Part shown: positions 11,999-62,697 of the stretch, piece after piece
How positions within the stretch are numbered: the stretch's first letter is position 1
Layout: the number at the start of each line of letters is the position of its first letter
Assembly (NCBI GenBank): GCA_024405265.1
Contig: JAKSOZ010000001.1
Span: forward strand, 27,263 to 91,262
From: Kiritimatiellia bacterium
GTDB taxonomy: Bacteria; Verrucomicrobiota; Kiritimatiellia; RFP12; UBA1067
DNA length: 64,000 bases
Direction: 5' to 3'
Notes under the pieces: generated by a model
Database searches by the model: none
What the model saw: the letters and a program-made list of their open reading frames with translations, nothing else
What the model was told of the DNA's origin: nothing
Program-made: the position numbers and the translations under genes

Positions 11999-12143
11999 CC
12001 AAAAGCGAGGCGTTTGCGAAGCTGATATATCTTAATTTGGCTTTATGTCCGGCGATAGCCGATTCTATGGATGTCGGCATAGCCGACCTGCGGTTAAGTA
12101 GTTCATCCCTAACTCGTCCCTAATCCCCAGCCCCTAAATCTCA

Positions 12144-12193: not shown

Positions 12194-12204
12194 AAATCTA
12201 AAAA

Positions 12205-24928: not shown

Positions 24929-25133
24929 ATATATTGGGTGTAAGATGAATGTGAGAACGAGACAGAATCGACGTGGTTGTGGAGTATCGCGAGTACTCGA
25001 CGGAGAAAGGGCTTGGTTTCAATCGTCCAATCCTATGCACGCATCTTATGCATCGAGGCCTGTCCCCCTTGAACTCCTCGCCCCGCTTCACGAACTCAAC
25101 GTCCACTTCCGTGGATTTGAGGAGCATATTTGA
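24929..25133 (+). promoter_or_regulatory. leader copy 2 fused to duplicate of dehydrogenase 3' end (chimeric junction)
   Basis: 24914-25075 homologous to 20181-20330; 25075-25133 homologous to 22541-22600. Confidence 0.5.
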
Positions 25134-26465
25134 TGTCTGCAAAGTTCGTATCATTGGGGGATGTTGATGCGGCATCCAAACCGTCCTTATGGTCTCCAGA
25201 GGATGACGAGGTACGCGTTAAATTATCTAGCACGATGGTTAGCTTTGTGTCGGCTCAGACAATGCCGCTTACGATTGGCTTGGATGGAGTATGGGGTAGT
25301 GGCAAAACCTATTTCTTGCGTCGGTTTGAGACTGACTATGCGAATTCGGCTGGTTCTGGGGCATGCATTTATCTAAACGCGTGGGAGCGGGATTTTCTCC
25401 ACGATCCTTTACTATATCTTTTCTACGGGTTAGATGAATTCGTTACGCGAAATCCAGACTATGCCTCGATTGATGACTTTAGTTGGGATGTGTGCAAGAA
25501 GAATCTTGTGGCTATTGCGAAGGGTAGCTTATCGGCCGTATTGCACGTTGCAACTAATGGCGCATCAGACAAAGTTATGGAAGGGATTGATGCGTGCTCA
25601 AATTCGATAGACAAACATCCGCTTAGCTTGTATCGCGAACAAACGCATTCAGTCGATACAATTAAAGGGTACCTAACAAAACTTGGTAATAAGGTACGTG
25701 AATCAACTGAACATAGTCTTTGTTCTTGGCCTAGATTTTGTTCAACTTGGGAAATCAATTCAGTCATTGTACGGGGAGATTGATACCGGGAATTATCTTC
25801 ATCGAATGATACAGTATCGATTCTCTCTGAGTGCTCTTCCGATTGACATGTTTGTCAGGACGATAGCAGAGCGAGATGCGATAAACACGCTTGTTTGGAA
25901 GTCGAAACCTAGATATCCTAATGAGCCGACATCAAATGATACTTTGGCGTTCAAGGTGTTCTGCTGGTTTGCCAAATTCTACGGGATATCTCTTCGTCAG
26001 ATTGAGCGGGCTATCGGGTTTTATCGAATGTCTGTAGTGTCTCCTCATCAATCCTCTTTGGCGATGGCGGTTTTTGCTATGACAAGTGTTTTGAAGGTAC
26101 ATGGGAATGGACTTGATAAGTTGCTGGTCGATGTTTCTGCAGAGGAATCTATAGTAGCCGATATACTTGACGAAAAAGGTTCTTCGAATAAACAAGATAG
26201 CAGTTGCATAAGGGAATTCCTGACTTATCTGATTAAAGCCTCCCGATGCACCGGCAGTGAGTCGGCAGAAAGGTTATATGGGGAATATCGTTCGCGCTAT
26301 CAGTTGTCTAAAGCGCGGCAGCCTGTCGATGATGCCTTTGGTCCGATGACCGTAGAGCTTTTGCTTAGGGCGTTTTATGCAGAGTTTGATAATGAATACA
26401 TTGATTTTGGAGATTCTCTCGTTAATATTGCAACGAGATGCATAAATTTGCAATGTGTCGTGTGA
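25133..26465 (+). pseudogene. KAP-family P-loop NTPase with frameshift near 25690-25715
   Basis: Walker A GLDGVWGSGKTYFL; ORFs 25130..25783 and 25683..26465 overlap by 100 nt in different frames. Confidence 0.5.
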
Positions 26466-26546
26466 TTATATAGGCTTCTCGAATACAATGGAGAAACCTT
26501 GCTGCGCGGTGTGATCATCTCTCCGACCGTAAGAGCGGCGGAATCA

Positions 26547-26598
26547 AACTTTCTTCCTTTCCATTCTTGCCGCAGAAGCGGGAAATATGGTATAATAT
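26547..26598 (+). promoter_or_regulatory. portable promoter module copy 2 (palindrome variant TTGCCGCAGAAGCGGGAA)
   Basis: aligned by eye with 12144-12193. Confidence 0.55.
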
Positions 26599-26620
26599 CT
26601 ATGTAGAAACGAGGTGCGAA

Positions 26621-44421: not shown

Positions 44422-45129
44422 ATGGCAAAGATCAAGGGGAGCGCGGTGCTCTCCAATTTCAAGCGCAAGGGTGACATCACGTGTTACTTCCTGCGCCTTC
44501 AGTCCAACGGCAAGGTCGACACCGCGTCGATCGCCGAAAACACCAAGGCCGACACGCGACTCTCCACGGAGTTTGCGACGGCCGCCATGCAGACGCTCAC
44601 CAACGAAATGGTGAACGCGCTGATGGAAGGCAAGCGCATCGAAACGCAGTACTTCTCGATGTACTTGAAGTGCCTCGGTCGCTTCAACGGTCCGACCGAC
44701 AAGTTCGATCCCGCGCGCCATCAACTCGGCATCGTCTTCGCTCCGAAGCCGGCGATGAAGAAGCTCCTCGAGACGCTCGAAGTCGAAAACATGACGGCGC
44801 ACGTCAAGGTCGCGCTTTCGTTCGTGCGCTCCGACGGCGTCGACGAGAAGAACGTCGTCAAGCTCGGCGCGAACGTCTTCGGTGAAGGCGAGGGACTCAC
44901 GCTCGTTGAGGGCCGTGAGGACGAATACGTCGCGCTCCTCGACAAGACTTCGCGCGCCATCGTCGCCAAGGCGGACGTGCTCGAAAGCTCCGTCGGTACC
45001 TTGAAGGCGAAGTTCGCCGCGGGTGCCGTCGAGCCGGGCGAGTACCTCTTCGTCGTGAGCTCCCGTAACGGCGGCGAGGAATCGCTCACGCCGTTCCAGA
45101 CCGAGAAGCTCGTCAAGGTCATCGCGTAA
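44422..45129 (+). CDS. HU-like (Bacteroidetes-type HU-family fold) DNA-binding domain protein with C-terminal extension
   Basis: N-terminal pattern KGDITCYFLRLQSNGKVDTASIAENTKADTRLS resembles the N-terminus of these HU-like proteins; GGAG RBS; GC visibly higher than flanks. Confidence 0.35.
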   Translation: MAKIKGSAVLSNFKRKGDITCYFLRLQSNGKVDTASIAENTKADTRLSTEFATAAMQTLTNEMVNALMEGKRIETQYFSMYLKCLGRFNGPTDKFDPARHQLGIVFAPKPAMKKLLETLEVENMTAHVKVALSFVRSDGVDEKNVVKLGANVFGEGEGLTLVEGREDEYVALLDKTSRAIVAKADVLESSVGTLKAKFAAGAVEPGEYLFVVSSRNGGEESLTPFQTEKLVKVIA

Positions 45130-45146: not shown

Positions 45147-46208
45147 ATGGCTAACAAGATTCAGCTCAAGCTCGTCAAGAGTTCCTTGGAAACCGTGCGC
45201 GACGACTTCACGGCGATTGTCGTCAACTCGGGGACGGTCGGTCTCGATGAACTCCTTGCGCGTGCCGCGGAGAAGGAACCGAACTTCTCGGTGACATCGA
45301 TCGGCCTCGCCTTCGCCTCGTGGATGCGCTACGCGGCGACGCAGATCGGCGAGGGCATGTTCGTCAACTTCGGCGGCATCGGGCTTATGGCGTATGTGCC
45401 GGGCTCGCTCCTCCACATGGACGAAGCGGTCTCGTCCGATCGTCTCGGCGTGCAGGTCACGATGTATGAAAACGCGTTCACCGAAGCGATCGCCAAGCTC
45501 GAGGCGACGACGTCCGTCGATGAGGACGCGCTCTCGTTCGTCTTCAAGAAGGTCGAGGACGAAACGACCAATACGCTCGGCGTCATCACTCCCGGCGGCA
45601 CGATCAAGGTCCTCGGCGATCGTCTCTCCACGGGACTCGACGGCGAGAAGATTACAATCACCGACTCGACCGGCGCTACGATGGAGGCGGCGAATGTCGT
45701 CGGCGATGCGGAGGGCTGCTGGCTCAAGGGCGACGCGGCGCGCAAGCTCAAGCCCGGCAAGGGCGAGGTTGCGGTTTACTGCCGCGGACTCAAGACGCCC
45801 GAAGCCGATGTCGTCCGACAGACGCGCAAGGTCACGATTCTCTCGCCGAACATCGAGCCCGGTCCGCATATCGAATCGCTCAAGTCGCGTGCGACGCGTG
45901 GCGAGGGCGAGTGGCGTGTGTTCGCAGACGTCTTCGACATCGAGGGCTATGGCTTCGATCCCGACACGACTGCGACGCTTCGCCTCGTGAAGCGCGCGAC
46001 GGGACAGGAGGCGGCGAAGGTCAACTCGCAGACGAGCGGCTACAACGTGCTCAAGCGCGAGAGCGACGAAAAGCTCGTCTTCACGCTCGACCGCAACAGC
46101 TCGGCCGAACCCGACGGCTCGTGGCTCGATGACGTGACGTACGACGCCGAACTCGTCCTCACTAACGCCAAGGGCACGACGACCCTCCCGCTCCAGCGCG
46201 AGTGGTAA
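45147..46208 (+). CDS. HU-like N-terminal domain protein, paralog of the previous gene, with long C-terminal beta-rich region
   Basis: KIQLKLVKSSLETVRDDFTAIVVNSGTVGLDELLARAAEKEPNFSVTSIGLAFAS... ; AAGGAAAGGAGG RBS. Confidence 0.4.
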   Translation: MANKIQLKLVKSSLETVRDDFTAIVVNSGTVGLDELLARAAEKEPNFSVTSIGLAFASWMRYAATQIGEGMFVNFGGIGLMAYVPGSLLHMDEAVSSDRLGVQVTMYENAFTEAIAKLEATTSVDEDALSFVFKKVEDETTNTLGVITPGGTIKVLGDRLSTGLDGEKITITDSTGATMEAANVVGDAEGCWLKGDAARKLKPGKGEVAVYCRGLKTPEADVVRQTRKVTILSPNIEPGPHIESLKSRATRGEGEWRVFADVFDIEGYGFDPDTTATLRLVKRATGQEAAKVNSQTSGYNVLKRESDEKLVFTLDRNSSAEPDGSWLDDVTYDAELVLTNAKGTTTLPLQREW

Positions 46209-46225
46209 CGCGCTAAAGCGAGCGA

Positions 46226-46330
46226 TAAAGTATAAGTGATAAGTGTTAAGTGGTGGTGTTTAAGCTCTTCTTGTAAAAGGGGACAAAATTCCATCACTTA
46301 TCATTTATCACTTATCGGTTATCACTAACA
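46226..46330. repeat. long imperfect palindrome built from GTGATAAGTG units
   Basis: 46231-46260 pairs with 46296-46325. Confidence 0.55.
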
Positions 46331-46346: not shown

Positions 46347-46481
46347 ATGAAGCTAAATATCGATTGGAAGGGAATGGCGAAGGCCGTAGTGAAGGCCATT
46401 CTCCCGTTCTTCTCCGGCGCGCTGGGCGGCCTCCTCTTCGGTTGCTCCGTCTATGGCACCGGCGCAGGCGTTACGTTCTGA
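46347..46481 (+). CDS. candidate 44-aa hydrophobic Gly-rich peptide MKLNIDWKGMAKAVVKAILPFFSGALGGLLFGCSVYGTGAGVTF
   Basis: AAAGGAAAGG RBS 8 nt upstream; followed by perfect hairpin GTGGGCGGGG-TAAC-TCCCCGCCCAC (46498-46522). Confidence 0.4.
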   Translation: MKLNIDWKGMAKAVVKAILPFFSGALGGLLFGCSVYGTGAGVTF

Positions 46482-46578
46482 CGCGCGAACGCCTAAGGTG
46501 GGCGGGGTAACTCCCCGCCCACTCAATACTATCACCCTCTTTACATTTGATGCGTAAAAATGGTATAATAGTATCCAA

Positions 46579-47274
46579 ATGTTGGAGATAAGGGAGATAA
46601 TTCGTGCATCCAGTCAGGGTGTTACCGTGCCTGTGCTATGCAAAGGCGATGATGGAGCACTGTACTGGTGCAAGGGCGATCAGGCTGGATTGGCATCTTG
46701 TCGAAACGAATGGGTTTGCGGATGCTTGGCTAAGGCTTTGAATTTGTCGATTCCAAAGTTTGATATTGCTAAAGTCCCTTGGGAGCTGTTTGTCGCATGG
46801 AGGAATCTTGCCGTTGATGTACCGCCATTGATTAAGGAATCAAATCCATATGTCTTTGCTTCTCGTCATGTGGAAGATGCGAAGGACATTGTTTCCGTTA
46901 GGGAAATCAAGGATGTTGATGAAAGTGACCAAGTGAAGATTTTTCTTTTCGACGAGTTTATCCGCAATGTGGATCGGACAGATTCGAACAGTAACCTCTT
47001 GGTAACTGCAGCAAAACGATGGTATGTCATTGACCATAATTCGTCATATGCCGAGAATTTTGACAGACCGAGTTTTGTGTCGGATCATTTGTTTAAGAAC
47101 TCGATTCATGGAGAAGCATACCGAGGGAAGGATGCGTTTCTAAAACAAATCAAAGAGGTGTTCACGGTTGATTTCTTAGAGTCTGTGTGGAGTGAAATGC
47201 CGAATTCGTGGGTATCTGACGATGCGGCTGAAGCTCACAAGGAAAGAATTCTGAAAACTATACATGGAGAATGA
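46579..47274 (+). CDS. HipA-C-like Ser/Thr kinase domain protein
   Basis: IRNVDRTDSNSNLLV aligns with HipA catalytic loop IGNTDDHLKNFSLL, and VIDHN with the HipA metal-binding D; TGGTATAATAG then 6 nt then ATG. Confidence 0.45.
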   Translation: MLEIREIIRASSQGVTVPVLCKGDDGALYWCKGDQAGLASCRNEWVCGCLAKALNLSIPKFDIAKVPWELFVAWRNLAVDVPPLIKESNPYVFASRHVEDAKDIVSVREIKDVDESDQVKIFLFDEFIRNVDRTDSNSNLLVTAAKRWYVIDHNSSYAENFDRPSFVSDHLFKNSIHGEAYRGKDAFLKQIKEVFTVDFLESVWSEMPNSWVSDDAAEAHKERILKTIHGE

Positions 47275-48125
47275 ATATGACTACAATGCATGTGTGCACA
47301 GTTGTGCCGGTTGTATTCTGCCCGTTCCCTGAGACCGGGGAGTTCGCTTGTATTGGTGTCATTATGTGTTGCCCTGCTATAGGTTGGTATGGGTATAAGC
47401 TTATTAAGGCCAACGAGCGTCCATTCAAGCGGGCGGCTAAGTTTTTTGATCAGATAGATGACTCGATTATTCGTACTGCCATTAGATGTGCTAAGCAGGA
47501 TATTGAGTACACTATAGATATGGCCACAGAAGAGCTTGACCCTGTTGTCCGTAATGCCGCTTTTCAAAACTTAATTAGACCGCGGGAGGGTTTTATTAGG
47601 TATGGCAATGCTAAGGCTATAATGGTTGAAGATTATCGGGCAGCATTGGAGGAGCAGTTCAAGAGTATTGTTCATCGGAACTTCATTGATAGAGAAGGCT
47701 ATTACGAGAATAAAATGCGTGAACGCGTTCAAGACTACCTGACATCGCGTAAGATAAGCTTCCATTCTAAGAAAAGGTATGAGTTCGAGAATGGTTATTT
47801 TAGCTTTAATATTCCGTTTGTTCTCGGCGAAAAAGATTCTGCAAAGCTAATTAAGCCGTTAAACTTCGTTACAAAGAGCAACAACGAGACAATGGAGCAT
47901 TGGTTTAAGTGGCGGACGCGTTTTGACTATCTTCACAGTGTCGGTTTTGATAAGGAGCGTATCCTTGTGCCGGTGCGTTTGCCGGAGCCTGGTCACGCTT
48001 CTTACGATGCGGCGTATCGTGTATTTGATCTTTTGCAGAAGCACACCATGACGGTTAACGAAGATGATAAAAAGCAGGAAGAGGCATCGGTTGTGAATTT
48101 TGCAACTAGCGGAGCCTCAGTATGA
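47271..48125 (+). CDS. DUF3037-like protein
   Basis: ATGA overlap with kinase gene; N-terminal HVCTVVPVVFCPFPETGEFACIGVIM pattern. Confidence 0.45.
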   Translation: MNMTTMHVCTVVPVVFCPFPETGEFACIGVIMCCPAIGWYGYKLIKANERPFKRAAKFFDQIDDSIIRTAIRCAKQDIEYTIDMATEELDPVVRNAAFQNLIRPREGFIRYGNAKAIMVEDYRAALEEQFKSIVHRNFIDREGYYENKMRERVQDYLTSRKISFHSKKRYEFENGYFSFNIPFVLGEKDSAKLIKPLNFVTKSNNETMEHWFKWRTRFDYLHSVGFDKERILVPVRLPEPGHASYDAAYRVFDLLQKHTMTVNEDDKKQEEASVVNFATSGASV

Positions 48126-48169
48126 TGCTAATATTGGTTAGAAGAACTTGTGATTAATGGGTGTGAACA

Positions 48170-48547
48170 ATGTCCCGAAAGAAGTCTTCAGAAGAGATTC
48201 ATGCGAGTGAAACGAAGTTTGTTGCGATTTGCGATTTGTTAAAGACCGCAATGGTGATATCTGTTGTAGGCTTTTTGGGTTATCGCGTTATAGAGATGAT
48301 GACTGTGGCACTCTCGGCAAAGCCTGAGACATTGGATTCGTTTGCAAAGTGTCTCTCGGAATGGAAAGTCGCCGATATCATTTTTGCTATTGTATCGATT
48401 ATTACTGGCGGAGGATGGTATATAGAACACCAACGCAATAACAATCTCGTACAAAGCAATGGCGATCTTAGGCATGAGAAAGAATCTCGTGATGTTGTCT
48501 CTACAAGAAGCGGACTTGACAAAGTCGGAAGAACACCTAAGGAGTAA
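48170..48547 (+). CDS. small membrane protein (2 TM)
   Basis: hydrophobic segments; no motif. Confidence 0.4.
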   Translation: MSRKKSSEEIHASETKFVAICDLLKTAMVISVVGFLGYRVIEMMTVALSAKPETLDSFAKCLSEWKVADIIFAIVSIITGGGWYIEHQRNNNLVQSNGDLRHEKESRDVVSTRSGLDKVGRTPKE

Positions 48548-48551
48548 GAAA

Positions 48552-49079
48552 ATGTGTGAAGCCTTACTATCTATTGTTGGATTCGTTGCATTAGTGTTCG
48601 CTTGGAGGGCATGGAAAAAGACCGCTCGTGGTGCAGTAAGAGATTGCTTGTTCTCATTGCGTGATGAGTGGCGCAATCACTATGTAGACTGCAAGCTGGA
48701 TATGCAAGATGGGGCTTATGCAGATATTAGGAATCTACTTAATGGGATGCTAAGATACACCAAGAGAATGCGTATGATGGGTTTCTTATATTTCGCTGCG
48801 CACGCATCCTCGGAGGAAGTGGCTTCGACATCATCTCGGATAGACGAGACAATAGATAGATGTGATAGCGATACTAGGGAGCTGGCAAAAAGGATTCGGA
48901 GAAAAGCATGTGAAGCAATTTTGATATATATGGCTGCCACATCGCTAGGGTTTATTTCTGCGGCAGTGTTTATGTTTGTTTATTTCCTTCCTAATAGGAT
49001 TTTCTCCGCAATAAAGACTAGTATACGCTCGGTGTTTGATGTCAAGCCTGCTATGCTTGAGTATGCTGTCCTATATTAG
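48552..49079 (+). CDS. membrane protein (N- and C-terminal TM helices)
   Basis: TAAGGAGTAAGAAA-ATG RBS. Confidence 0.4.
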   Translation: MCEALLSIVGFVALVFAWRAWKKTARGAVRDCLFSLRDEWRNHYVDCKLDMQDGAYADIRNLLNGMLRYTKRMRMMGFLYFAAHASSEEVASTSSRIDETIDRCDSDTRELAKRIRRKACEAILIYMAATSLGFISAAVFMFVYFLPNRIFSAIKTSIRSVFDVKPAMLEYAVLY

Positions 49080-49353: not shown

Positions 49354-50001
49354 CTAGGCGCGCTCCTTAACCGCAAGCCACTCGCTCGAGCCCTCGACGA
49401 TTGAGCGCGAGCAGCGGAAGGGCTCGATGAACGGCGCTTCGAGAAGCTCGAGGTTCCCGTAGGCGAACCACTCGCGCCCGAGGAAGCGAACGCCCGGAAC
49501 GACGCGAAAGAAGTCGCGCTTCGCCTGGCGGCGATAATGGCGCGCGGGGTTTTCGCGAATGTACTTGATGAAGGCATCGAGTTGTCCGCGGCGCTTAATG
49601 ATCCAATCGTGCCATTCGCGCTCGAAGATCGGCCGGACGGAACCGGCCTCAAGCCCGACAGACGTATGTTTCGCAACTGGCGGTTCCGTCCGCCAGTAGG
49701 CGCTCGACAGCGCCTTCATCAACTGGTAAACGACTCGCCCGAGGTTGCCGCGCTTCTCGATATCGGCGAGTTTGATCAGGAGATGAATATGATCGGGCAT
49801 CACGACGAAAGGGCGGATCGGCTCGATTACGAACCAGGTCTTATGGAAGTCGAGAATCGTCTTGATCAGAGCCTTCGTAATCGGCGTTTCGACTATTACG
49901 CCTTCTTGGTTGACCGAAAACGGCGCGAGGCCTTCGCGCTTTTTCAAGGTCACCATATAGTAATACGGCGCCGAATAGTCAAATCCGTTTAATCGATACA
50001 T
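49354..50001 (-). mobile_element. Y1 HUH transposase of the IS200/IS605 / REP-associated (RAYT) type
   Basis: HUH motif MPDHIHLLI; about 215 aa; consensus GGTATAATC promoter on minus strand at 50019-50030; gene is GC-rich relative to surroundings. Confidence 0.6.
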
Positions 50002-51030: not shown

Positions 51031-51107
51031 AATAACAAGTACTTGTTCGCAAATAAACCGTCACGAGCGTCGTGTACGGTTTTTTGTTTAAGTATGGGGG
51101 TAAGAGT

Positions 51108-52445
51108 ATGAACGAGCAACGTGAGTCCGATGTTCCAATTGACAAGTCCTATAGCATGCCGTCGTTCAAACTAGTCAAATATAACGGTTGTGGCTTAGCG
51201 GTTTTTGTTGATATCGCACGATGGGTGGTTCTTAGGAACGATCGTCAGCAGGTAATCTTTAACGAGTTAACAAACGGCCGTTCGATTGGAAATGTATTGG
51301 AGGGACATTCGGACTCTATAAACGATGTTCGTGAGGTTCTTGTGCAATTAGAGGCTTTGCAGGTGGAGAAAATCAAAGCCAAATCGATTTTTTCAAACAC
51401 AAGATTGCATCTGCATCTTACTAATCGATGCAACATGCATTGCCCTCATTGTTATGTATGTTCGAGTGTTGCTTACGATAACGAACTCACCACCGAGGAG
51501 ATACAAAGTTTATGCAAGCATTTCAGAGATATCGGCGGAACCGATGTTTCTCTGACGGGAGGAGAACCGACATTAAGGGATGACTTTTTCGAAATTGTCA
51601 AATACATATCGGACATAGGAATGCGAGTTTCCGTTTACACCAACGGGTTGAATTGGGATGAAGAAAAGATAAAAAGACTCGCAACTTATTCTATCGAAGG
51701 TGTTCAGGTTAGTATTGACGGTTATGACGAACAAACCAACGCTGTTTTCAGAAATAAGGGAGCCTTTGAAAGGGCCTTGAACACAGTTGATTTGATGTTG
51801 AAGCATAAACTCCACTTGAAGATTGCAATAACGCCGCCATACGAAGTTCTTATGGAGAATCGGCAAAAGTATATTGATTTTGCGAAGTCTCTTCTTGATA
51901 AGTACGGGACGGATTCTTTGGAATTGAACTTTTCGTATGCACTTATGCCAGGGCGGGAACTGACGGTTGCGTTTGTTGATAGCGTCCGCGATAAATACCA
52001 AGATTATATAGATAAAATTGTGAGCTCGGTATGGCCGAATGCAAAGATGGACTCTTTCGTCGCAAATATCTCGGACGGCATATATGATAGTTGTGGTTAT
52101 GGTGGTTTGAATGTTTTGTCCAATGGCGATCTTTATTTTTGTGATAGACTTAGTGATGTAGCTAAAAACGGCAATATTAGAGATATGCCGTTCGAAGAAA
52201 TACATCGTCTTATGCAGCTAGCGGAAGAGACCGGAAAGATAGATCACTTCAGGCCTTGTAAAGACTGCGAACTTAAGTATATTTGCGGTGGTGGTTGCAG
52301 AGCTGAATGGTTCCGTCAATTTACGCAGATAGATAACGTTGAAGAAGTCGATTATACTTCGATAGCTCCGCGCAAGTGTACTTACTCCGATAAAGAGCGA
52401 ATTTATGATCTCATGTTAAGGACGACGGAGATGTTCTATCGTTAA
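51108..52445 (+). CDS. radical SAM enzyme with C-terminal SPASM domain and N-terminal PqqD/RRE-like extension
   Basis: CNMHCPHC (CxxxCxxC) about residue 105; C-terminal CKDCELKYICGGGCRA; first about 95 aa resemble a RiPP recognition element. Confidence 0.7.
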   Translation: MNEQRESDVPIDKSYSMPSFKLVKYNGCGLAVFVDIARWVVLRNDRQQVIFNELTNGRSIGNVLEGHSDSINDVREVLVQLEALQVEKIKAKSIFSNTRLHLHLTNRCNMHCPHCYVCSSVAYDNELTTEEIQSLCKHFRDIGGTDVSLTGGEPTLRDDFFEIVKYISDIGMRVSVYTNGLNWDEEKIKRLATYSIEGVQVSIDGYDEQTNAVFRNKGAFERALNTVDLMLKHKLHLKIAITPPYEVLMENRQKYIDFAKSLLDKYGTDSLELNFSYALMPGRELTVAFVDSVRDKYQDYIDKIVSSVWPNAKMDSFVANISDGIYDSCGYGGLNVLSNGDLYFCDRLSDVAKNGNIRDMPFEEIHRLMQLAEETGKIDHFRPCKDCELKYICGGGCRAEWFRQFTQIDNVEEVDYTSIAPRKCTYSDKERIYDLMLRTTEMFYR

Positions 52446-52446
52446 T

Positions 52447-54873
52447 ATGGGGGATTTGCTTATAGCGATTAATGCTTCTGCATCAAGACGAAATGACTTC
52501 TTGGTATTGCAAACTTATTGCGCAAAAGAAGTTGTTGTCAATAAGAACGGAAAATACAAGGGCGGTAGTATCTCGGAACTTGATGCTCTGAATTGCCCTC
52601 GTCTCTCAAACGTAAATAGTGCGTTAACACGGGATATATTTTCTAGATATTGCTTTCGTCTTTCATATAATTCATTTTACTTGCCGCTTTATGATGTTGC
52701 TGACTTCCAAAAAGCGTTTGGAGGAAGCTGCCCACTGTTCTTAGATAATACGGATAGGTCGATATTTGCAATTTCCGATGTTAAATATGATAGCTCCCCA
52801 CGAAGCAAATACAAGTATAAGATTGGCGCTGGCGAAATAACTCGCACGAATGATGGTATTCTTTGGATAAGCGACAAGGAAGTCGATCGGAAAGTTCGCC
52901 AAATTGTTCCGACAGCAAGGTTGGTATACAATCCGGAGATTCAGGCTCATACACTTTTTTTCGATTATGAAAACACCTCGATTCCATATAGTGCACAACA
53001 ACTTTCGATTTGCGAAAAGGACCGTATTTACTTGAGAAATTACCAAGCTGAGGACGTTGTTGTTAATCGATTGTCTCTTAATTTCAAAAGTCTTACAAAG
53101 GGCCGTTTCCTTTATAGCGGACATGGGCATCTTGCGGATTTGAAAGACACTTTACGGCAACAGGATATTTTTTTGGAAGAAGATCGGGAGTTTTTAGTTC
53201 CACAAGTTAATGTAAGACGAGGAGACTCCGGGTGGTTTGAGATTGATTTGTTCTGCCGTAAAGATGGTGAAATTGTGAATCTTGCGGAAAGAATCGATTT
53301 GTTCGCCTCTAAGAATGCTATTGAGATCGACGGCAAGAAGGTAGTGCTTCCGGAATCAATCGTAAGCGTTAAAGATAGGCTGGTGTTTGAAAATGGTAGA
53401 TTGAAGTTGTCGGAAGGGAATACGCTCGGCTTATTGCGTCTTATTTCTGATAGTGGTGCCAAGGTGGAGGAGTTCTTTCCGTATCCAAACATTCAGTTGA
53501 AGTTGTTGGAGAAGATGCAATCGGTTGCATATCCATATCAAGTCGAGGGAATCAAATGGCTGAAGTTTCTTTTCCTCAATCAAATAGGTGGATGCCTTGC
53601 GGATGATATGGGATTAGGAAAGACATTTCAGGTGATTTCATTTCTTTGTGATCGAGAGGTCAGAAAGAAAGTTAAGAAAGTTTTGGTTGTTGTTCCAAAG
53701 TCGCTCTTGACCAATTGGGTTAGGGAGTTTAACAAATTTGGCTCTGATTACAAGGTGCAGATATACCACGGCGCCGCACGAAAGGATTTCGATTTAGAGG
53801 CATGTGATGTGTTGATAACAACGTATAATACGGCAACCATCGATGAAGAAGTGTTAAGCAAGTGTAACTTCTCGGTTGCGATATTTGATGAGATTCAAAC
53901 TATCAAGAATCGCAATTCAACAACATCCGCGTCGATGAAGAAGCTGAATGCGAAGGTTAAGTTCGGATTGTCAGGAACTCCGATGGAAAATAATATCTCG
54001 GAGTTGTGGAATGTTATGGATGTAGTTAATCCTGGCGTTTTCTCCGATTGCGATACTTTTTGTCGGCGGTATGGTAATTCGAATTATGAAGAGCTAAGAA
54101 CGATCTTGACTCTATTCGTTATGCGTCGCACCAAAGAGCTGGTCTTGAAAGAATTGCCACCGAAAATCGAGCGAATTGTGTATTGTGATATGGATCCCGC
54201 GCAGCGAAAGCTTTACGATGGAATAAAAATGTCCGTCAGACGAGCTATTGAGAGATTGAAGGTGTTTGCAGCACCAGTTATCTTGAAAGGACTTACATTA
54301 CTAAGGGAATGTTGTTGTCATCCTCAACTCTTGGGCCATGAAGTTAATGTCGAAAACATTTCTGATTCTTGTAAACTAGACGCACTACGTATTCTTGTCG
54401 AGGACCTCTATAAAAATGGCCATAAGATATTAATCTTCAGTAGTTGGACATCGATGTTGGAAATTGTCAAGCATGAACTTGGGTCAGATGACGCGTATCG
54501 AAATCACATTTATTATCTGGATGGAAAAACATGCCACAGGCAAGAATTGATAGAACGGTTTGAATCAGCTGATAAGGGGGTGTTTCTCATCAGCATCAAA
54601 GCAGGTGGCGTTGGCCTTAATTTAACCTCGGCGCAGGATGTGATTATTTATGACCCGTGGTGGAACCCATTCGTTGAGCAGCAAGCGGTTGATCGCGCTC
54701 ATCGTATAGGACAAGATAAGCCCGTTTGTGTTTATAAGTTAGTGACGGCAGGTACTTTGGAGGAAAAGATTGTGGATATCGAAAACGATAAACGAAAGAG
54801 TTTCGATGCAATCATAAATGGTATATCCTCGGATAAGAATATGAAGTTAGAGGATATTTTGCGACTCCTTTAA
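52447..54873 (+). CDS. SNF2-family helicase/ATPase with unknown 350-aa N-terminal region
   Basis: YPYQVEGIKWL, DDMGLGKT (motif I), DEIQTIKN (motif II), helicase-C motifs (QAVDRAHRIGQ); ATG 2 nt after rSAM stop. Confidence 0.7.
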   Translation: MGDLLIAINASASRRNDFLVLQTYCAKEVVVNKNGKYKGGSISELDALNCPRLSNVNSALTRDIFSRYCFRLSYNSFYLPLYDVADFQKAFGGSCPLFLDNTDRSIFAISDVKYDSSPRSKYKYKIGAGEITRTNDGILWISDKEVDRKVRQIVPTARLVYNPEIQAHTLFFDYENTSIPYSAQQLSICEKDRIYLRNYQAEDVVVNRLSLNFKSLTKGRFLYSGHGHLADLKDTLRQQDIFLEEDREFLVPQVNVRRGDSGWFEIDLFCRKDGEIVNLAERIDLFASKNAIEIDGKKVVLPESIVSVKDRLVFENGRLKLSEGNTLGLLRLISDSGAKVEEFFPYPNIQLKLLEKMQSVAYPYQVEGIKWLKFLFLNQIGGCLADDMGLGKTFQVISFLCDREVRKKVKKVLVVVPKSLLTNWVREFNKFGSDYKVQIYHGAARKDFDLEACDVLITTYNTATIDEEVLSKCNFSVAIFDEIQTIKNRNSTTSASMKKLNAKVKFGLSGTPMENNISELWNVMDVVNPGVFSDCDTFCRRYGNSNYEELRTILTLFVMRRTKELVLKELPPKIERIVYCDMDPAQRKLYDGIKMSVRRAIERLKVFAAPVILKGLTLLRECCCHPQLLGHEVNVENISDSCKLDALRILVEDLYKNGHKILIFSSWTSMLEIVKHELGSDDAYRNHIYYLDGKTCHRQELIERFESADKGVFLISIKAGGVGLNLTSAQDVIIYDPWWNPFVEQQAVDRAHRIGQDKPVCVYKLVTAGTLEEKIVDIENDKRKSFDAIINGISSDKNMKLEDILRLL

Positions 54874-54877
54874 TGTT

Positions 54878-55477
54878 ATGGAAGTGACTGATATAGAAAT
54901 GTATGTGAGATATTTCAAGAAAGTTGTTTTCTTGAATATCTTGAGAATCTTTAAATCGATAGATTTCACCGGTAGGATCGAGTCAGACAATGAGGAATTG
55001 CGAGGATACGAAGGGTGCTATCCCGTGAGCCGAATGCTCGACTCATTGCAAATTTCAGAGCAAGATTCAGTTCTGGACATTGGATGCGGGAAGGGGATGT
55101 TCCTGTATTATGCCAAAAGGTATCCATTCAGACTCATTAGCGGTATTGATCTGAACGCTCAACTTGTTTCTGTTGCGCGGCGAAATATGTCTAAATTATC
55201 TGATACTCGAATTGATGTGTGGCATTGTGATGCACGTACATTTGGAGCGTATGACAAATACAATATATTCTTTATTAACAATCCTTTTTGTAAGGAAGTC
55301 TTGTGTGAAGTTGTTAATAGAATAATTGATAGCCAGCGACAGAATATGAGACGGATAACTGTCATTTATCAATTCCCGTATCATTTAGATGTGTTTGCAG
55401 GGCTTGGATTTATGATTAAAGCCGACGATGGCGTGAATGTTATTCTTGAGCGGAGTGTAGTTTTCGATGACGTGTGA
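54878..55477 (+). CDS. small class-I SAM-dependent methyltransferase (RsmD-like architecture)
   Basis: motif I VLDIGCGKG and downstream FFINNPF (degenerate D/NPPF). Confidence 0.45.
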   Translation: MEVTDIEMYVRYFKKVVFLNILRIFKSIDFTGRIESDNEELRGYEGCYPVSRMLDSLQISEQDSVLDIGCGKGMFLYYAKRYPFRLISGIDLNAQLVSVARRNMSKLSDTRIDVWHCDARTFGAYDKYNIFFINNPFCKEVLCEVVNRIIDSQRQNMRRITVIYQFPYHLDVFAGLGFMIKADDGVNVILERSVVFDDV

Positions 55478-59291: not shown

Positions 59292-59299
59292 GGCATAAG

Positions 59300-59350
59300 A
59301 CTTTCTTTTGACCCATTCTTGCCGCGGAAGCGGCAAATATGTTATAATAT
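59300..59350 (+). promoter_or_regulatory. portable promoter module copy 3
   Basis: GACTTTCTTTTGACCCATTC-TTGCCGCGGAAGCGGCAA-ATATGTTATAATAT. Confidence 0.55.
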
Positions 59351-59446
59351 CTAACTATGAAGATGAGTGCGAATTTGCGAATTCGGCGGATGTGTGGGGT
59401 GCTGTTGGTACACCACTGGCAAGAGCTTTGTAGCGTATGGTAATTA

Positions 59447-59779
59447 ATGAAGGAACTTAAAATGATTTCACGTGGTTTGATTTTAATGATGTGTGGCGCG
59501 TTGATGATGTTGTCTGCGTGTACAACACAGGCAACTATTAGCGGACGTGAGATATCAGATGAAGTCCTTGAGAAACCATCCGACATGGCATTGTACAATG
59601 GGTGCTTTTGGAATGACCGCTTATGGGAAGATGCTTGGGTGAGCAAGAAAAGTAGACAACACACCTTAAAACAAGTGCGCATGCGAATCTCCCCGTGGCA
59701 ACCATTGGCTGCTATCGGCACGTTGGGACTGTGGGTGCCATTTTATGTGGAATGGGAGCTAAATGGAGATGCGTTATGA
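59447..59779 (+). CDS. small secreted/lipoprotein-like protein
   Basis: signal peptide LILMMCGALMMLSAC (lipobox-like); SD AAGGAA upstream; a 28-codon uORF (59357-59443) lies between promoter and this gene. Confidence 0.45.
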   Translation: MKELKMISRGLILMMCGALMMLSACTTQATISGREISDEVLEKPSDMALYNGCFWNDRLWEDAWVSKKSRQHTLKQVRMRISPWQPLAAIGTLGLWVPFYVEWELNGDAL

Positions 59780-60813
59780 AGATCCATAATATCGCGATTT
59801 TCTTTGACGGCACCGGACAAAGCAAGAGTCAACAAAAGCCGACAGATTACACAAATGTCGTGTTGTTGCATGATGCGCTTGATATGGCGAAGACGTCGAG
59901 TGTGTCACAAGTTCGCAAATATATTGAAGGCGTTGGCACACGGAAAGAAGAGTCTCTCAAGGGTGGAGCCTGGGGAATTGGACTTGATGAGCGTATCGAA
60001 GAGGCTTATGCATATCTTTGGCAAGAGTATAATAATGCCAAAGAAGCATCCGTCGAGCCCCATATATTCCTCTTTGGCTTTAGCCGCGGCGCATACGCCG
60101 CTAGATGGCTTGCTTCTTTGATTGTTAATGCGGGTATTCCAAAGAATGAAGACGATGTGCGTACGCTATTTATGAAGCACCGTTCTGAGAATCGGAAGTA
60201 TTTGGAAAAGATCAAGGCGGATAATCGTGTATGGTGCGACGCGACGATTGATTACATTGGAGTTTGGGATACGGTTGAGGCATCGGTTAACAAGAGCTTT
60301 GATATCGAGAATGCGCATCCGATGATAAAATCGGTTCGTCATGCATTAGCGATGGATGAGTGGAGATTCAAGTTCTTGCCGACAAGATACAATCCTCGGA
60401 ATGGTGTCGAAGAGCTATGGTTCCCCGGCTGCCATACGGATGTCGGCGGTGGATATCCTGAGCGAGGTCTGGCGCGTTGTCCACTCGAGTGGATCGCGGA
60501 AGGTGCAATTAATGCGGGACTGAAAGTGGATTCTGATAGGCTGAATCAATCCATTGATGATAGATCGTCCAAAATCAAATATCACGATGAGCTTGTAGAT
60601 GGAGGCTTGGGAATGGGTCTCTTGTGGTGGTTTACGAATATCTGTGGTGGTTTAAGGAGTAAGACATATCGTCAAATGCGTGTAGATGATTTTTACGATC
60701 AAACATATGTGACATACAAAGATCAAGCACCTTCTGATGACGAGCGACTCAATATTCCGGCCACATGTTTGGCTTACAATAATCACCATTCTGATGCGTT
60801 TGAGCGCGCGTAA
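59776..60813 (+). CDS. DUF2235 (Tle1-like alpha/beta-hydrolase) protein
   Basis: N-terminal IAIFFDGTGQS signature; GFSRGA nucleophile-elbow-like; ATGA overlap with previous gene. Confidence 0.55.
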   Translation: MKIHNIAIFFDGTGQSKSQQKPTDYTNVVLLHDALDMAKTSSVSQVRKYIEGVGTRKEESLKGGAWGIGLDERIEEAYAYLWQEYNNAKEASVEPHIFLFGFSRGAYAARWLASLIVNAGIPKNEDDVRTLFMKHRSENRKYLEKIKADNRVWCDATIDYIGVWDTVEASVNKSFDIENAHPMIKSVRHALAMDEWRFKFLPTRYNPRNGVEELWFPGCHTDVGGGYPERGLARCPLEWIAEGAINAGLKVDSDRLNQSIDDRSSKIKYHDELVDGGLGMGLLWWFTNICGGLRSKTYRQMRVDDFYDQTYVTYKDQAPSDDERLNIPATCLAYNNHHSDAFERA

Positions 60814-60824
60814 AGGCACAATTT

Positions 60825-61226
60825 ATGGCTAAAAAGGCAAAAATATCCAGAAATAAACAGAGGGTAGTTCCAAGAAAAGAAAAGGAAACGCTTCAAATGT
60901 GCAAAAAAGTCAGCCCGATAATGGCTTTGGGATTTGCTTTGCAAAAAAGAGACAGAATCTCTTACGATCAGTTGTTGTTGAAAAGCCAGAAATTGTTGAG
61001 TACCGATGATGGATATCTGCTTGATGTGTCTTTTCGAGAAATTGCAAAAACAGTAGAGGCGTATCCCGGGGCTTTTGAGATTGTTGTTGATAGGGAATGT
61101 TATTCTGTTATCAAAAAGCGTACAGATGTTCGAATGTTCAAGGAATCGCACTTGAAGATGTGTTATCACGAGGCCTTTTCCGAAGCGGAGTTCAAAGAAT
61201 TGGTCAGTATTCTGATCGAGGCCTGA
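60825..61226 (+). CDS. hypothetical protein
   Basis: 133 aa; stop 1 nt before HD gene ATG. Confidence 0.4.
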   Translation: MAKKAKISRNKQRVVPRKEKETLQMCKKVSPIMALGFALQKRDRISYDQLLLKSQKLLSTDDGYLLDVSFREIAKTVEAYPGAFEIVVDRECYSVIKKRTDVRMFKESHLKMCYHEAFSEAEFKELVSILIEA

Positions 61227-61227
61227 A

Positions 61228-62697
61228 ATGTCGCTAAAATATAAACTCTTCCGAGATCCTGTACACGGGGATATAGAAGTTGAACGTTGGATATGTTCTG
61301 CTTTTGTTGACTCTGATGTTTTTCAGCGATTGCGTTTCGTTGAGCAATCGTCCATGAGAATGTTGTTCCCCGGTGCTCGACATGACAGATTCATACACAG
61401 CCTCGGTACGTTTTTAATGGCTAAAAGAATCTTTGATGCTCTACAAGATTCTATACGTGTCTGCTTTGAGGAGGAGCAGGTTCATGAGTTCCGTAACACA
61501 TTCCTAATAGCAGCTCTTTTGCATGATTGTGCCCATTCGCCATTCTCTCATACCGGAGAATCGCTAGCTAAGTACTATTGCGGATCGGAGATAGATAAGC
61601 TTCTTGCAGGCGCAGTTAATGATATCTCGTTCAAGAATGAATTATCTCGATCACGAAGTGCAACACACGAAAAAGCAAGCGCATATGTTGCATGTGTTCG
61701 ATTTGAAGCCGAATTCTCAAAACATTCAATTAATCGTGTTCAGTTAGCGAGAATGATAATAGGATTGAAAAACGAGGGGGCGTTAAACGATCCTGTTATG
61801 CGCGTATATAATTGCTTGATATCTCTTGTTAATGGCTTTATTATAGATGTCGATAGGTTGGATTATTTAGAGCGTGATACGTGGGCGACAGGTATTCGTA
61901 ATGCTTCTGTTGATTTGGAGAGGTTGATCTCGGGGCTTGAAATTGATTTTGATTTGGGCGAGGTGATAATTAATAATAGCGCAACATCTAGCGTAATCAA
62001 TGCTGTTGCAGCGAGGGATTACATCTATAAATGGGTAATACCACACCATAAAGTCGCTTACGCGAACGAGGTTCTAGAGCGGGCGATGCACGCATTGATT
62101 CACGCGTTAGTTAAAAAATCTAGGAAAACACGAGGCGAGGTCGGCAAGATATTGTTTTCTCCGGATCGATTACTGCTGAATGGGCAGGCAAAACTAGCCG
62201 GTGAGACTATTAGACTTCCAACTGATGGGGATCTTGTTTATCTCATGAAGAAGTATGTGCCTAAAGATGAGTTCTTTATGGCGTATTCTGAACGTCGCGT
62301 CATTCATAAGTCGTTATGGAAGACACATGCAGAGTTTATGCATATCTTCAATCCTCCTAAGAAGGGAGAGAGATTAAATCAAGATTTCTGGGATATGTTT
62401 GCAGGTAAGGCAAATGCCATTTGCAATAAGTACGGAGGATTTGCAACTGAAGCGAATCCAGTTAAGGTGTCGATGGAGAAGGTTGCTGATGTCAAGTTTG
62501 TCCTTAAAGACAATAAGCAAAAGCTTGACCTAACATACTTATTAGGGCCTCAAAGACAGGACGAAGGCGTCTATTACCTAAATGCATATATAGGGAATTC
62601 TTATGCAGATAGTACTGACGAAGTTATGATACAGCTAAGGGGAGCCTTTGATGATTGCATCAAGTTGTTTAAGGCGTCAACTAAGACTAACCAATGA
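61228..62697 (+). CDS. HD-domain phosphohydrolase of the dGTPase/SAMHD1-like (COG1078-type) family
   Basis: DPVHG...FQRLRFVEQ...RHDRFIHSLG...LLHDCAHSPFSH motifs. Confidence 0.6.
   Translation: MSLKYKLFRDPVHGDIEVERWICSAFVDSDVFQRLRFVEQSSMRMLFPGARHDRFIHSLGTFLMAKRIFDALQDSIRVCFEEEQVHEFRNTFLIAALLHDCAHSPFSHTGESLAKYYCGSEIDKLLAGAVNDISFKNELSRSRSATHEKASAYVACVRFEAEFSKHSINRVQLARMIIGLKNEGALNDPVMRVYNCLISLVNGFIIDVDRLDYLERDTWATGIRNASVDLERLISGLEIDFDLGEVIINNSATSSVINAVAARDYIYKWVIPHHKVAYANEVLERAMHALIHALVKKSRKTRGEVGKILFSPDRLLLNGQAKLAGETIRLPTDGDLVYLMKKYVPKDEFFMAYSERRVIHKSLWKTHAEFMHIFNPPKKGERLNQDFWDMFAGKANAICNKYGGFATEANPVKVSMEKVADVKFVLKDNKQKLDLTYLLGPQRQDEGVYYLNAYIGNSYADSTDEVMIQLRGAFDDCIKLFKASTKTNQ

What the first reader, a model, noticed from the sequence alone, without database searches (positions are those of the whole stretch)
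46579..49079. HipA-C-like kinase + DUF3037 pair followed by two small membrane proteins
The short kinase retains the HipA catalytic-loop pattern and overlaps (ATGA) a DUF3037-like gene. Two membrane proteins follow. A kinase with a partner of unknown function and membrane components resembles toxin-antitoxin or abortive-infection modules.
Basis: partly seen in the sequence, partly recalled or inferred. Interest (0 to 1): 0.55.

Follow-up and report, generated by a model that had tools for sequence, protein, structure and literature searches.

The report
Known HipAD kinase defence plus separate membrane pair
The four genes are two unrelated anti-phage-type cassettes side by side: a distant copy of the already validated HipA-like kinase/DUF3037 ("HipAD") toxin-antitoxin defence system, and a pair of small membrane proteins that elsewhere travels alone in prophages. 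The finding is real but largely ordinary.

Summary
ORF A (46579-47274) is a HipA_2 kinase (Pfam E=4e-47) with its catalytic residues intact. ORF B (47271-48125) overlaps it by ATGA and is a DUF3037 protein. Two membrane proteins follow: C (48170-48547) and D, whose real start is 48552 (end 49079).

The "kinase plus unknown partner = TA/abortive infection" reading is right, but this pair is already known. It is PADLOC candidate PDC-M66, and it has been validated experimentally as DS-6/HipAD and in the Retron-Sda1 operon. A and B align to phage PhiR5_1 HipA and HipD at 29% and 26% identity.

The membrane genes are not part of that system:
- The closest A-B cassettes (B proteins 79-85% identical) share DNA only from the promoter to the 3' end of B, and are followed by other genes.
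- C-D always occur together without A-B, mostly in prophage-like contexts. The exceptions are L001 and L029, which are the window's own lineage.
- D matches the PADLOC model "1TM-TIR" in all 27 family members tested. Relatives of C weakly match "2TM-TIR". These are the membrane components of the TIR + two-TM system of P2-like phage AC1. No TIR gene is present here.

The host is a Kiritimatiellae MAG. The genes sit in a low-GC islet inside a polysaccharide locus that carries other defence genes. I rate this a new member of a known kind, of modest interest.

The parts
46540..46569 (+). Promoter-like site (TTTACA-18 nt-TATAAT, TG-extended -10) directly upstream of the kinase gene. It lies inside the DNA block shared with related A-B cassettes.
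   Evidence: Matches 11 of 12 consensus positions. DNA homology to L005 starts at 46539. The same 'TGGTATAATA' motif occurs in a repeated intergenic element elsewhere in the window. Function is inferred, not shown.
46579..47274 (+). A: short HipA-like Ser/Thr kinase (HipA_2 family, 231 aa), the predicted toxin/effector of the HipAD (DS-6, PDC-M66) system.
   Evidence: Pfam PF20613 E=4.2e-47. PADLOC PDC-M66A 2.7e-16. phrog_3162 7e-42. 29% identity, E=2e-22, to the annotated HipA toxin of phage PhiR5_1. Catalytic loop aligned to E. coli HipA. K32/D132/N137/D152 invariant.
47271..48125 (+). B: HipD-like partner (284 aa), the predicted antitoxin/sensor. It has an N-terminal DUF3037 domain (about residues 7-136) and a C-terminal alpha/beta domain (about 141-279) with a weak restriction-endonuclease-like fold resemblance and no conserved acidic catalytic residues.
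   Evidence: Pfam PF11236 E=3.8e-11. PDC-M66B 1.7e-6. phrog_5137 2e-25 over residues 16-269. 26% identity, E=1e-16, over residues 3-217 to PhiR5_1 HipD. AF2 model pLDDT 87.7. Foldseek top hits are all weak (best E=0.04); several are PD-(D/E)xK-type nucleases. Invariant columns.
48170..48547 (+). C: 125-aa membrane protein with 2 TM segments and a conserved cytoplasmic tail (E..D....RSGLD..G.TP). It is the first gene of an independent two-gene membrane cassette.
   Evidence: Hydrophobic segments at about 18-42 and 67-85. A homologue lies immediately upstream of every D homologue examined. The family is small: 43 representatives at E<=1e-3 among 1.84 billion proteins. 6 of 37 relatives weakly hit PADLOC '2TM-TIR' (best 9e-4). 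C itself has no PADLOC, Pfam, NCBIfam or PHROG hit.
48552..49079 (+). D: 175-aa all-helical membrane protein with an N-terminal TM, a roughly 100-residue helical bundle and a second TM. It is homologous to the '1TM' component of the TIR + 2 TM system of P2-like phage AC1.
   Evidence: PADLOC PDLC02977 '1TM-TIR' 5.5e-8; all 27 family members hit it, best 4.5e-13. phrog_13156 4e-11. Family members are 175-177 aa. AF2 pLDDT 80.6, all helices. No informative fold match.
46539..48107 (+). Extent of the mobile A-B cassette: the only DNA shared with the closest related loci.
   Evidence: blastn against L005 covers 46539-48083 at 88%. Against L006 it covers 46455-48107 at 87%. Nothing beyond these blocks matches.
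46498..46522 (+). Perfect 10-bp G+C-rich hairpin after the small upstream ORF. It probably marks the end of the upstream transcription unit.
   Evidence: Inverted repeat I6. Sequence read. It has no T-tract, so a terminator role is inferred only.

Best explanation
The region holds two adjacent but separable cassettes inside a low-GC islet of a Kiritimatiellae chromosome.

(1) A-B is a distant member of the HipAD (= DS-6 = PADLOC PDC-M66) system. A is a minimal HipA-type Ser/Thr kinase that acts as a growth-arresting toxin. B binds and neutralises it, probably through its DUF3037 N-terminal domain. Phage infection relieves that inhibition, and the kinase then phosphorylates an essential host factor and aborts the infection. 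The homology, the catalytic residues and the cassette boundaries are shown here. The toxin/antitoxin behaviour and the defence role are taken from experiments on homologues. The trigger and the kinase substrate are unknown.

(2) C-D is an independent two-gene membrane cassette. It is homologous to the two transmembrane components of the TIR + 2 TM system of phage AC1 (DefenseFinder Rst_2TM_1TM_TIR) but lacks the TIR gene. It is usually carried by prophages near their regulatory region. Its most likely role is a membrane-acting superinfection-exclusion or abortive-infection module. That role is inferred.

In the window C-D may be co-transcribed with A-B, but this juxtaposition is an accident of cassette accretion in a defence hotspot.
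For: A-B identity:
- Pfam HipA_2 4e-47 and DUF3037 4e-11; PADLOC PDC-M66A/B.
- Full-length alignments to the annotated HipA and HipD of phage PhiR5_1, which have the same 4-nt overlap and similar sizes.
- Catalytic residues conserved.
- Experiments on homologues: a kinase catalytic mutant loses defence (PMC13092281); kinase deletion abolishes defence and DUF3037 deletion is toxic (PMC12548924).

Modularity:
- L005 and L006 carry the kinase at 93.5% and 99.6% identity and B at 85% and 79%. They are followed by N6_Mtase/AAA_15-SMC genes and by AAA_15 genes, not by TM genes.
- The shared DNA ends at about 48083-48107.
- L007, L008 and L002-L004 also carry A-B without TM genes.
- C and D co-occur at all 23 further D-containing loci examined (about 11 lineages). 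Only L001 and L029, which are the window's own lineage (identical and 97% nt identity), also have A-B.
- Those loci carry phage genes: Portal_Mu, Terminase_6N and HTH_3 repressor-like neighbours.

C-D identity:
- D matches '1TM-TIR' in 27 of 27 family members.
- L011 carries a TIR gene ('TIR-TM' 1.2e-5), a C homologue ('2TM-TIR' 0.0034) and a D homologue ('1TM-TIR' 2e-9) together.
- The AC1 three-gene locus was shown to defend against lambda, LF82_P8 and P2 (PMC9122126).

Context:
- Other defence-type genes lie in the window: AbiU 1e-118, and a radical-SAM + SNF2 + MTase cassette.
Against: - No experiment exists for this locus or for any Kiritimatiellae homologue.
- Identity to the validated HipA and HipD is only 26-29%.
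- Pfam does not detect the DUF1829 domain reported for DS-6B in B.
- C itself has no significant hit to the '2TM-TIR' model.
- The defence role of a TIR-less C-D pair has never been tested. In AC1 the three genes were cloned together and not dissected.
- B and C are only 44 nt apart with no convincing terminator between them, so co-expression, and therefore some functional interplay, cannot be excluded.
- My sample of C-D contexts is small and comes from short metagenome contigs.
Confidence: 0.8

Rival explanations
1. The four genes form one integrated system. The kinase/DUF3037 pair would sense infection and regulate the two membrane proteins as the killing effector, with HipAD taking the place of the TIR sensor found next to C-D in L011 and AC1.
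For: - All four genes are on the same strand, with 44-nt and 4-nt gaps, in one low-GC islet whose boundary falls exactly at the stop of D.
- No convincing terminator lies between B and C, and only a weak 9/12 promoter-like site lies before C.
- The four-gene order is retained in a 97%-identical variant contig, L029.
- C-D relatives can sit next to a different sensor-type gene (TIR) in L011.
Against: - The arrangement is seen only in one near-identical lineage (window, L001, L029).
- The nearest A-B cassettes have different downstream genes, and DNA homology stops at the 3' end of B.
- Every other C-D pair lacks A-B.
- HipA/DUF3037 pairs defend on their own in E. coli.
Confidence: 0.08
2. A-B is a plain addiction or persistence-type toxin-antitoxin module that stabilises the genomic islet or promotes dormancy, with no role in phage defence in this organism.
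For: - TA-like genetics in homologues: loss of the DUF3037 gene is toxic.
- Canonical HipA is a persistence kinase, as summarised in PMC13092281.
- The cassette behaves as a mobile unit.
Against: - Homologous pairs protect against phages in two independent studies.
- The neighbours of A-B are defence-type genes at several loci: Peptidase_C14 + Methylase_S, AAA_15, RT + HD, and AbiU in the window.
- A HipA/HipD pair sits right after cI in phage PhiR5_1, a position expected to be expressed during lysogeny.
Confidence: 0.1
3. C-D is a phage lysis-timing (holin/antiholin-like) or other phage membrane function that was carried into the islet as a prophage remnant. It would not be a defence module.
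For: - C has a size, two TM segments and a charged C-terminal tail that resemble class II holins (the holin features come from general knowledge).
- Most C-D pairs lie in phage genomes, sometimes shortly upstream of terminase genes.
Against: - No endolysin-type Pfam domain was reported among the neighbours.
- In several loci the pair sits next to repressor-type HTH genes, a position typical of lysogeny-expressed accessory genes.
- All D relatives match the HMM built from a component of a validated defence locus.
- In the window the pair lies in a chromosomal defence islet with no phage structural genes.
Confidence: 0.15

Closest known systems
HipAD / DS-6 / PADLOC PDC-M66 (HipA-like kinase + DUF3037 protein). 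Validated in E. coli by DeWeirdt et al. 2026 (PMC13092281), who cite Brenes & Laub 2025 (pmid 40409266, not readable here), and in the Retron-Sda1 operon (PMC12548924).
   Same: - Two overlapping genes in the same order.
- A kinase of about 230-250 aa from Pfam HipA_2, with the catalytic residues conserved.
- A partner of about 275-285 aa with an N-terminal DUF3037 domain and homology extending into the second domain.
- Located in mobile or defence contexts.
   Different: - Only 26-29% identical to the phage PhiR5_1 proteins.
- The host phylum is Kiritimatiellota, and the cassette is chromosomal, inside a polysaccharide locus, rather than in a prophage.
- Pfam DUF1829, reported for DS-6B, is not detected.
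- Function has not been tested here.
Canonical HipBA toxin-antitoxin (E. coli HipA kinase + HipB Xre-type antitoxin)
   Same: The kinase catalytic core is the same. The catalytic loop and the preceding helix align colinearly with HipA structures. The logic of a toxic kinase held in check by a neighbouring gene product is also shared.
   Different: - A is half the size (231 aa against about 440 aa) and lacks the HipA N-terminal domains.
- The partner lies downstream rather than upstream, is not an HTH protein, and belongs to DUF3037.
- Sequence similarity to solved HipA chains is not significant (E about 0.4).
Rst_2TM_1TM_TIR: the TIR + two transmembrane proteins of P2-like phage AC1 (Rousset et al. 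2022, PMC9122126). PADLOC models '1TM-TIR', '2TM-TIR' and 'TIR-TM'.
   Same: - D and all 26 relatives tested match the '1TM-TIR' model.
- C relatives weakly match '2TM-TIR'.
- The two genes are an obligate pair and are phage-borne.
- One relative, L011, has the TIR gene next to them.
   Different: - There is no TIR gene in the window, nor next to C-D at the other loci with enough flanking sequence, including L013, which has the same C-D proteins as L011.
- The hit of C itself is below threshold.
- D has two hydrophobic segments, not one.
- The predicted fold of D is all-helical, so the 'TIR' in the model name refers to the system and not to this protein.

Membership tests
HipAD / DS-6 / PDC-M66 | Short HipA-like kinase of Pfam family HipA_2 | tested here: met
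   PF20613 E=4.2e-47, 160.9 bits against a cut-off of 27. PDC-M66A 2.7e-16. 29% identity, E=2e-22, to PhiR5_1 HipA.
HipAD / DS-6 / PDC-M66 | Intact kinase catalytic residues (required for defence in DS-6A) | tested here: met
   D132 and N137 align with the HipA catalytic-loop D and N in 'TDGHAKN'. K32, D132, N137 and D152 are invariant in alignment A1. This rests on alignment only; no activity assay was done.
HipAD / DS-6 / PDC-M66 | DUF3037 protein encoded immediately downstream of, and translationally coupled to, the kinase | tested here: met
   ATGA overlap at 47271-47274. PF11236 E=3.8e-11. PDC-M66B 1.7e-6. 26% identity, E=1e-16, to HipD across residues 3-217.
HipAD / DS-6 / PDC-M66 | Second domain of the partner (DUF1829 in DS-6B) | tested here: inconclusive
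   No DUF1829 hit at E<=1. PhiR5_1 HipD also shows only DUF3037 at E<=0.01. The C-terminal domain is homologous to that of HipD. Its model gives only weak restriction-endonuclease-like fold matches (best E=0.04).
HipAD / DS-6 / PDC-M66 | Kinase toxic alone, neutralised by the partner, and the pair protects against phage | not testable with these tools
   Known only for homologues.
Canonical HipBA | Full-length HipA (about 440 aa with N-terminal domains) plus an upstream HipB HTH antitoxin | tested here: not met
   A is 231 aa with only the HipA_2 core. No HTH gene lies immediately upstream: there is only a 44-aa hydrophobic ORF and a hairpin. The partner is a DUF3037 protein.
Rst_2TM_1TM_TIR (AC1 system) | '1TM' component | tested here: met
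   D matches PDLC02977 at 5.5e-8, and 27 of 27 family members match it.
Rst_2TM_1TM_TIR (AC1 system) | '2TM' component | tested here: inconclusive
   C has no PADLOC hit at E<=0.1. Six of 37 relatives hit PDLC02978 (best 9e-4), and the L011 homologue hits it at 0.0034. The model length (124) matches the size of C.
Rst_2TM_1TM_TIR (AC1 system) | TIR-domain protein in the same operon | tested here: not met
   tblastn of the L011 TIR protein against the whole window gives no hit. No TIR Pfam hit in any neighbour scanned. The window therefore should not be filed as a complete member.

The most novel reading that the evidence does not exclude
The TIR-less C-D pair may be the autonomous core of what was described as a three-gene TIR + 2 TM system. 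It would be a two-protein membrane module that different sensors can be plugged into: TIR in AC1 and L011, and HipAD in this Kiritimatiellae lineage. The kinase pair here would then gate a membrane effector instead of, or in addition to, arresting translation.
Probability: 0.08. Interest if true: 0.6.

Novelty: new member of a known kind. Interest (0 to 1): 0.3.

Why it matters
The finding extends the recently validated HipAD/DS-6 kinase defence family to Kiritimatiellota, a phylum of gut and rumen bacteria.

It also gives natural variants that are useful for dissecting the system:
- Partners that consist of the DUF3037 domain alone (L002-L004).
- A recombinant in which the kinase and the first ~55 residues of the partner are essentially identical while the rest of the partner is swapped.

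It shows that the two membrane proteins of the rare "2TM-1TM-TIR" system usually travel without the TIR gene in the gut and rumen prophage contigs sampled here. This makes a concrete prediction: the pair should work on its own.

None of this changes current concepts. It mainly prevents the four genes from being over-interpreted as one new system.

Tried and rejected
- blastn of the region against the phage collection gave no match. tblastn of D against phages gave no match.
- NCBIfam had no hit for any of the four proteins.
- The genome-contig scan with the kinase alignment returned only 3 loci. The IMG/VR scan with the D alignment returned none. The metagenome scan returned 4 loci, one of them a duplicate. 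The context statistics therefore rest on about 30 mostly short contigs.
- Fold searches for D against PDB and BFVD returned only generic helical bundles. The PDB sequence search for D gave nothing significant. The same search for B gave nothing.
- A prophage origin for the window was rejected. The flanks are glycosyltransferases, Wzy, acyltransferases and a pyruvyl transferase, with no phage structural genes.
- A TIR fold for D was rejected despite the model name '1TM-TIR'. The model of D is entirely helical.
- An active nuclease in the C-terminal domain of B was considered unlikely. No conserved acidic residues sit at the PD-(D/E)xK positions; the invariant residues there are P182 and K195.
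- General hypervariability of the C-terminus of B was rejected. In distant homologues divergence is uniform along the protein, so the mosaic seen against L006 is a recent recombination.
- Brenes & Laub 2025 could not be read because the paper is not held.
Full report
**Observation**

The + strand between 46579 and 49079 carries four consecutive ORFs.
- A (46579-47274, 231 aa) matches Pfam HipA_2 (PF20613) at E=4.2e-47.
- B (47271-48125, 284 aa) starts inside the stop of A (ATGA) and matches DUF3037 (PF11236) at E=3.8e-11 over residues 16-134.
- The kinase motif 'FIRNVDRTDSNSNLL' aligns colinearly with the E. coli HipA catalytic loop 'LIGATDGHAKNFSV', although overall similarity to solved HipA chains is not significant (E about 0.4).
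- K32, D132, N137 and D152 are invariant in the five-sequence alignment A1.
- C (48170-48547, 125 aa) and D each have two hydrophobic segments.
- The longest ORF for D begins at 48459. All 36 relatives are 174-201 aa and most are 175-177 aa, so the real start is 48552, 4 nt after the stop of C.

**What A-B is**

Both proteins hit the two models of the PADLOC candidate system PDC-M66 (A 2.7e-16, B 1.7e-6) and phage protein families of unknown function (phrog_3162, phrog_5137). The literature shows the pair is no longer of unknown function.
- DeWeirdt et al. validated DS-6, a HipA-family kinase plus a DUF3037/DUF1829 protein, as an anti-phage system. A kinase catalytic mutant lost defence. They state that the system was found independently and renamed HipAD (PMC13092281).
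- In the Retron-Sda1 operon, deleting the HipA-like gene abolished defence and deleting the DUF3037 gene was toxic, while the retron parts were dispensable (PMC12548924).
- Phage PhiR5_1 (PV340545.1) annotates 'HipA toxin' (249 aa) and 'HipD antitoxin' (275 aa) with a 4-nt overlap directly after cI.
- Window A aligns to that HipA at 29% identity (E=2e-22, full length). Window B aligns to HipD at 26% identity over residues 3-217 (E=1e-16), which runs beyond the DUF3037 domain.

A-B is therefore a distant but full-length member of the HipAD family.

**Anatomy of B**

- An AlphaFold2 model built on 16 homologues (pLDDT 87.7) shows two alpha/beta domains, at about residues 7-136 and 141-279.
- The best PDB fold matches are all weak (best E=0.04). 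Several are restriction-endonuclease-like nucleases: AF1548, the R2 retrotransposon endonuclease, OkrAI, LmuA, Cdn1/Can2 and XPF.
- The invariant residues of this domain (P182, K195, W214, E270) do not supply the acidic residues of a PD-(D/E)xK site. I read it as an inactive nuclease-like domain that binds DNA or a trigger. This is an inference.
- More distant Kiritimatiellae and Verrucomicrobia loci (L002-L004) pair the kinase with a DUF3037-only protein of about 129-150 aa. This suggests the DUF3037 domain is the part that deals with the kinase.

**Are C and D part of it? No.**

- The closest cassettes are L005 (kinase 93.5%, B 85% identical) and L006 (kinase 99.6%, B 79%). They are followed by N6_Mtase + AAA_15/SMC genes and by AAA_15 genes respectively.
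- DNA similarity to the window runs only from 46539 (L005) or 46455 (L006, at the contig end) to 48083-48107. That block is the promoter, A and B, and nothing beyond.
- L007 and L008 have A-B after Peptidase_C14 and Methylase_S genes. L010 has it near an RT and an HD protein.
- D belongs to a tight family (50-69% identity). At all 23 further D-containing loci examined, about 11 lineages, a C homologue lies immediately upstream.
- A and B are absent from those loci except L001 and L029, which are the same lineage as the window (identical and 97% nucleotide identity).
- The C-D loci are phage-like. Neighbours include Portal_Mu, Terminase_6N and repressor-type HTH_3 genes.

**What C-D is**

- D, and all 27 aligned family members, match the PADLOC model PDLC02977 '1TM-TIR' (best 4.5e-13).
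- Locus L011 carries three adjacent genes that hit 'TIR-TM' (1.2e-5), '2TM-TIR' (0.0034) and '1TM-TIR' (2e-9).
- I take these model names to correspond to the three-gene locus of P2-like phage AC1: a TIR protein with 'associated transmembrane proteins'. That locus was cloned as a unit and protects against lambda, LF82_P8 and P2 (PMC9122126). It is listed as Rst_2TM_1TM_TIR and reported as very rare (10.1101/2024.10.26.620412). The link between model names and system comes from the names and my own knowledge; the PADLOC metadata were not visible.
- C itself is below threshold, but 6 of 37 relatives hit '2TM-TIR' (best 9e-4).
- The most conserved part of C is its cytoplasmic tail: E105, D108, S114, L116 and G120.
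- D is predicted to be all-helical (pLDDT 80.6) and has no informative structural neighbour. It is not a TIR domain.
- The TIR gene is missing from the window and from L014, L017 and L020. It is also missing from L013, whose C and D proteins are identical to those of L011.
- The TIR-less pair is therefore the common form in this sample. The window cannot be filed as a complete Rst_2TM_1TM_TIR system.

**Context**

- The window is from a Kiritimatiellae MAG. The source name for the identical B protein says so, and the identical kinase is recorded in assembly GCA_024500545.1.
- It is a long, mostly + strand polysaccharide locus: glycosyltransferases, Wzy, acyltransferases and a pyruvyl transferase.
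- Low-GC islets carrying defence-type genes are interspersed in it:
  - AbiU/AIPR at 22827-24689 and a KAP NTPase at 25130.
  - The A-D islet, with 43% GC against 58-63% in the flanks.
  - A radical-SAM/SPASM + SNF2 + methyltransferase trio at 51072-55477.
  - A Tle1-like phospholipase + HD pair at 59695-62697.
- The right boundary of the A-D islet falls exactly at the stop of D and is followed by a weak Y1-transposase-like gene.
- A strong promoter-like site (11 of 12) lies at 46540-46569. Only a weak one (9 of 12) precedes C, and no convincing terminator separates B from C. C-D may be co-transcribed here, but transcriptional adjacency in one lineage is weak evidence for shared function.

**Mechanism**

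For A-B, stated with the inferred steps marked:
- B binds and inhibits the kinase. This is inferred from the toxicity of DUF3037 deletion and from AF3 predictions in homologues.
- Infection relieves the inhibition. The trigger is unknown.
- The kinase phosphorylates an essential factor and stops growth before the phage completes its cycle. The requirement for the catalytic residue is shown in a homologue. The substrate is unknown; aminoacyl-tRNA synthetases are the precedent from HipA.

For C-D, I infer a membrane-acting exclusion or abortive module expressed from prophages. A lysis-related role is the main alternative.

**Verdict**

The kinase pair is a new, distant member of a known and validated system. 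The membrane pair is a separate cassette, a TIR-less variant of another described system. Interest is modest, at 0.3.

Noticed in passing
window 46622-48150 compared with L006 and L005: Sharp mosaic inside the A-B cassette. Window and L006 are 99-100% identical in DNA from 46622 to about 47340 (the kinase and the first ~25 codons of B) and still 96% to 47431. Identity then falls to 57-81% from about 47520 (B residue ~85) to the end. B protein identity is 92% for residues 1-84 and 71% for residues 137-284. In distant homologues divergence is uniform, so this looks like a recent recombination that swapped the distal part of the partner protein.
   Followed up: partly
window 12137-12207, 26542-26612, 59294-59364; also L006 2044-2106: A 71-nt intergenic element in three copies (73-86% identical). 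It contains the hairpin TTGCCGCGGAAGCGGCAA followed by TGGTATAATAT and is also present after the A-B cassette of L006. It looks like a portable promoter or regulatory element at cassette boundaries within the polysaccharide locus.
   Followed up: no
window 51072-55477: A low-GC three-gene cassette: radical SAM/SPASM protein (PADLOC pVip models 9e-23), SNF2 helicase (DpdE/ZorD models down to 3e-113) and a small methyltransferase (mad2 7.5e-14). Gaps between the genes are only 1-4 nt. It is also present downstream in L001. It is a possible defence system that I did not identify.
   Followed up: no
window 22827-24689 and 25130-25783: An AIPR/AbiU protein (PADLOC AbiU 1e-118; Pfam AIPR 4e-37) and a KAP-family P-loop protein lie in another low-GC stretch. 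They are flanked by 56-nt and 95-nt direct repeats at 22541/25074 and 20194/24931.
   Followed up: no
window 59695-62697: A T6SS Tle1-like phospholipase domain protein (7e-52) is followed by a 133-aa ORF and an HD-domain protein. This lies just downstream of the third copy of the 71-nt element.
   Followed up: no
window 46221-46326 and 46347-46522: An imperfect 41-nt inverted repeat rich in TTATCAC/GTGATAA units lies at the left edge of the low-GC islet. It is followed by a 44-aa hydrophobic ORF (46347-46481) and a perfect 10-bp GC hairpin. Their role is unknown; they could be an operator, the end of the upstream HU-like operon, or an insertion scar.
   Followed up: partly
window 44422-45129 and 45147-46208: Two tandem HU-HIG/HU-DNA_bdg domain proteins lie in the highest-GC part of the window (58-63%), directly upstream of the islet.
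   Followed up: no
L002 3377-3766, L003 about 1498-1917, L004 5714-6103: Kiritimatiellae and Verrucomicrobia relatives pair the HipA_2 kinase with a short, DUF3037-only partner of about 129-150 aa that lacks the C-terminal domain. This is a natural minimal form of the system.
   Followed up: partly
L011 922-2800 compared with L013 1-1970: The same C and D proteins (100% identical) occur with a TIR gene upstream in L011, a contig that carries a Mu-type portal gene, and without it in L013. This is recent gain or loss of the TIR component.
   Followed up: partly
window 49354-50001 (- strand): A 215-aa ORF with a weak Y1 (IS200-like) transposase match (E=0.009, below the Pfam cut-off) lies immediately to the right of the islet, in high-GC DNA.
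   Followed up: no
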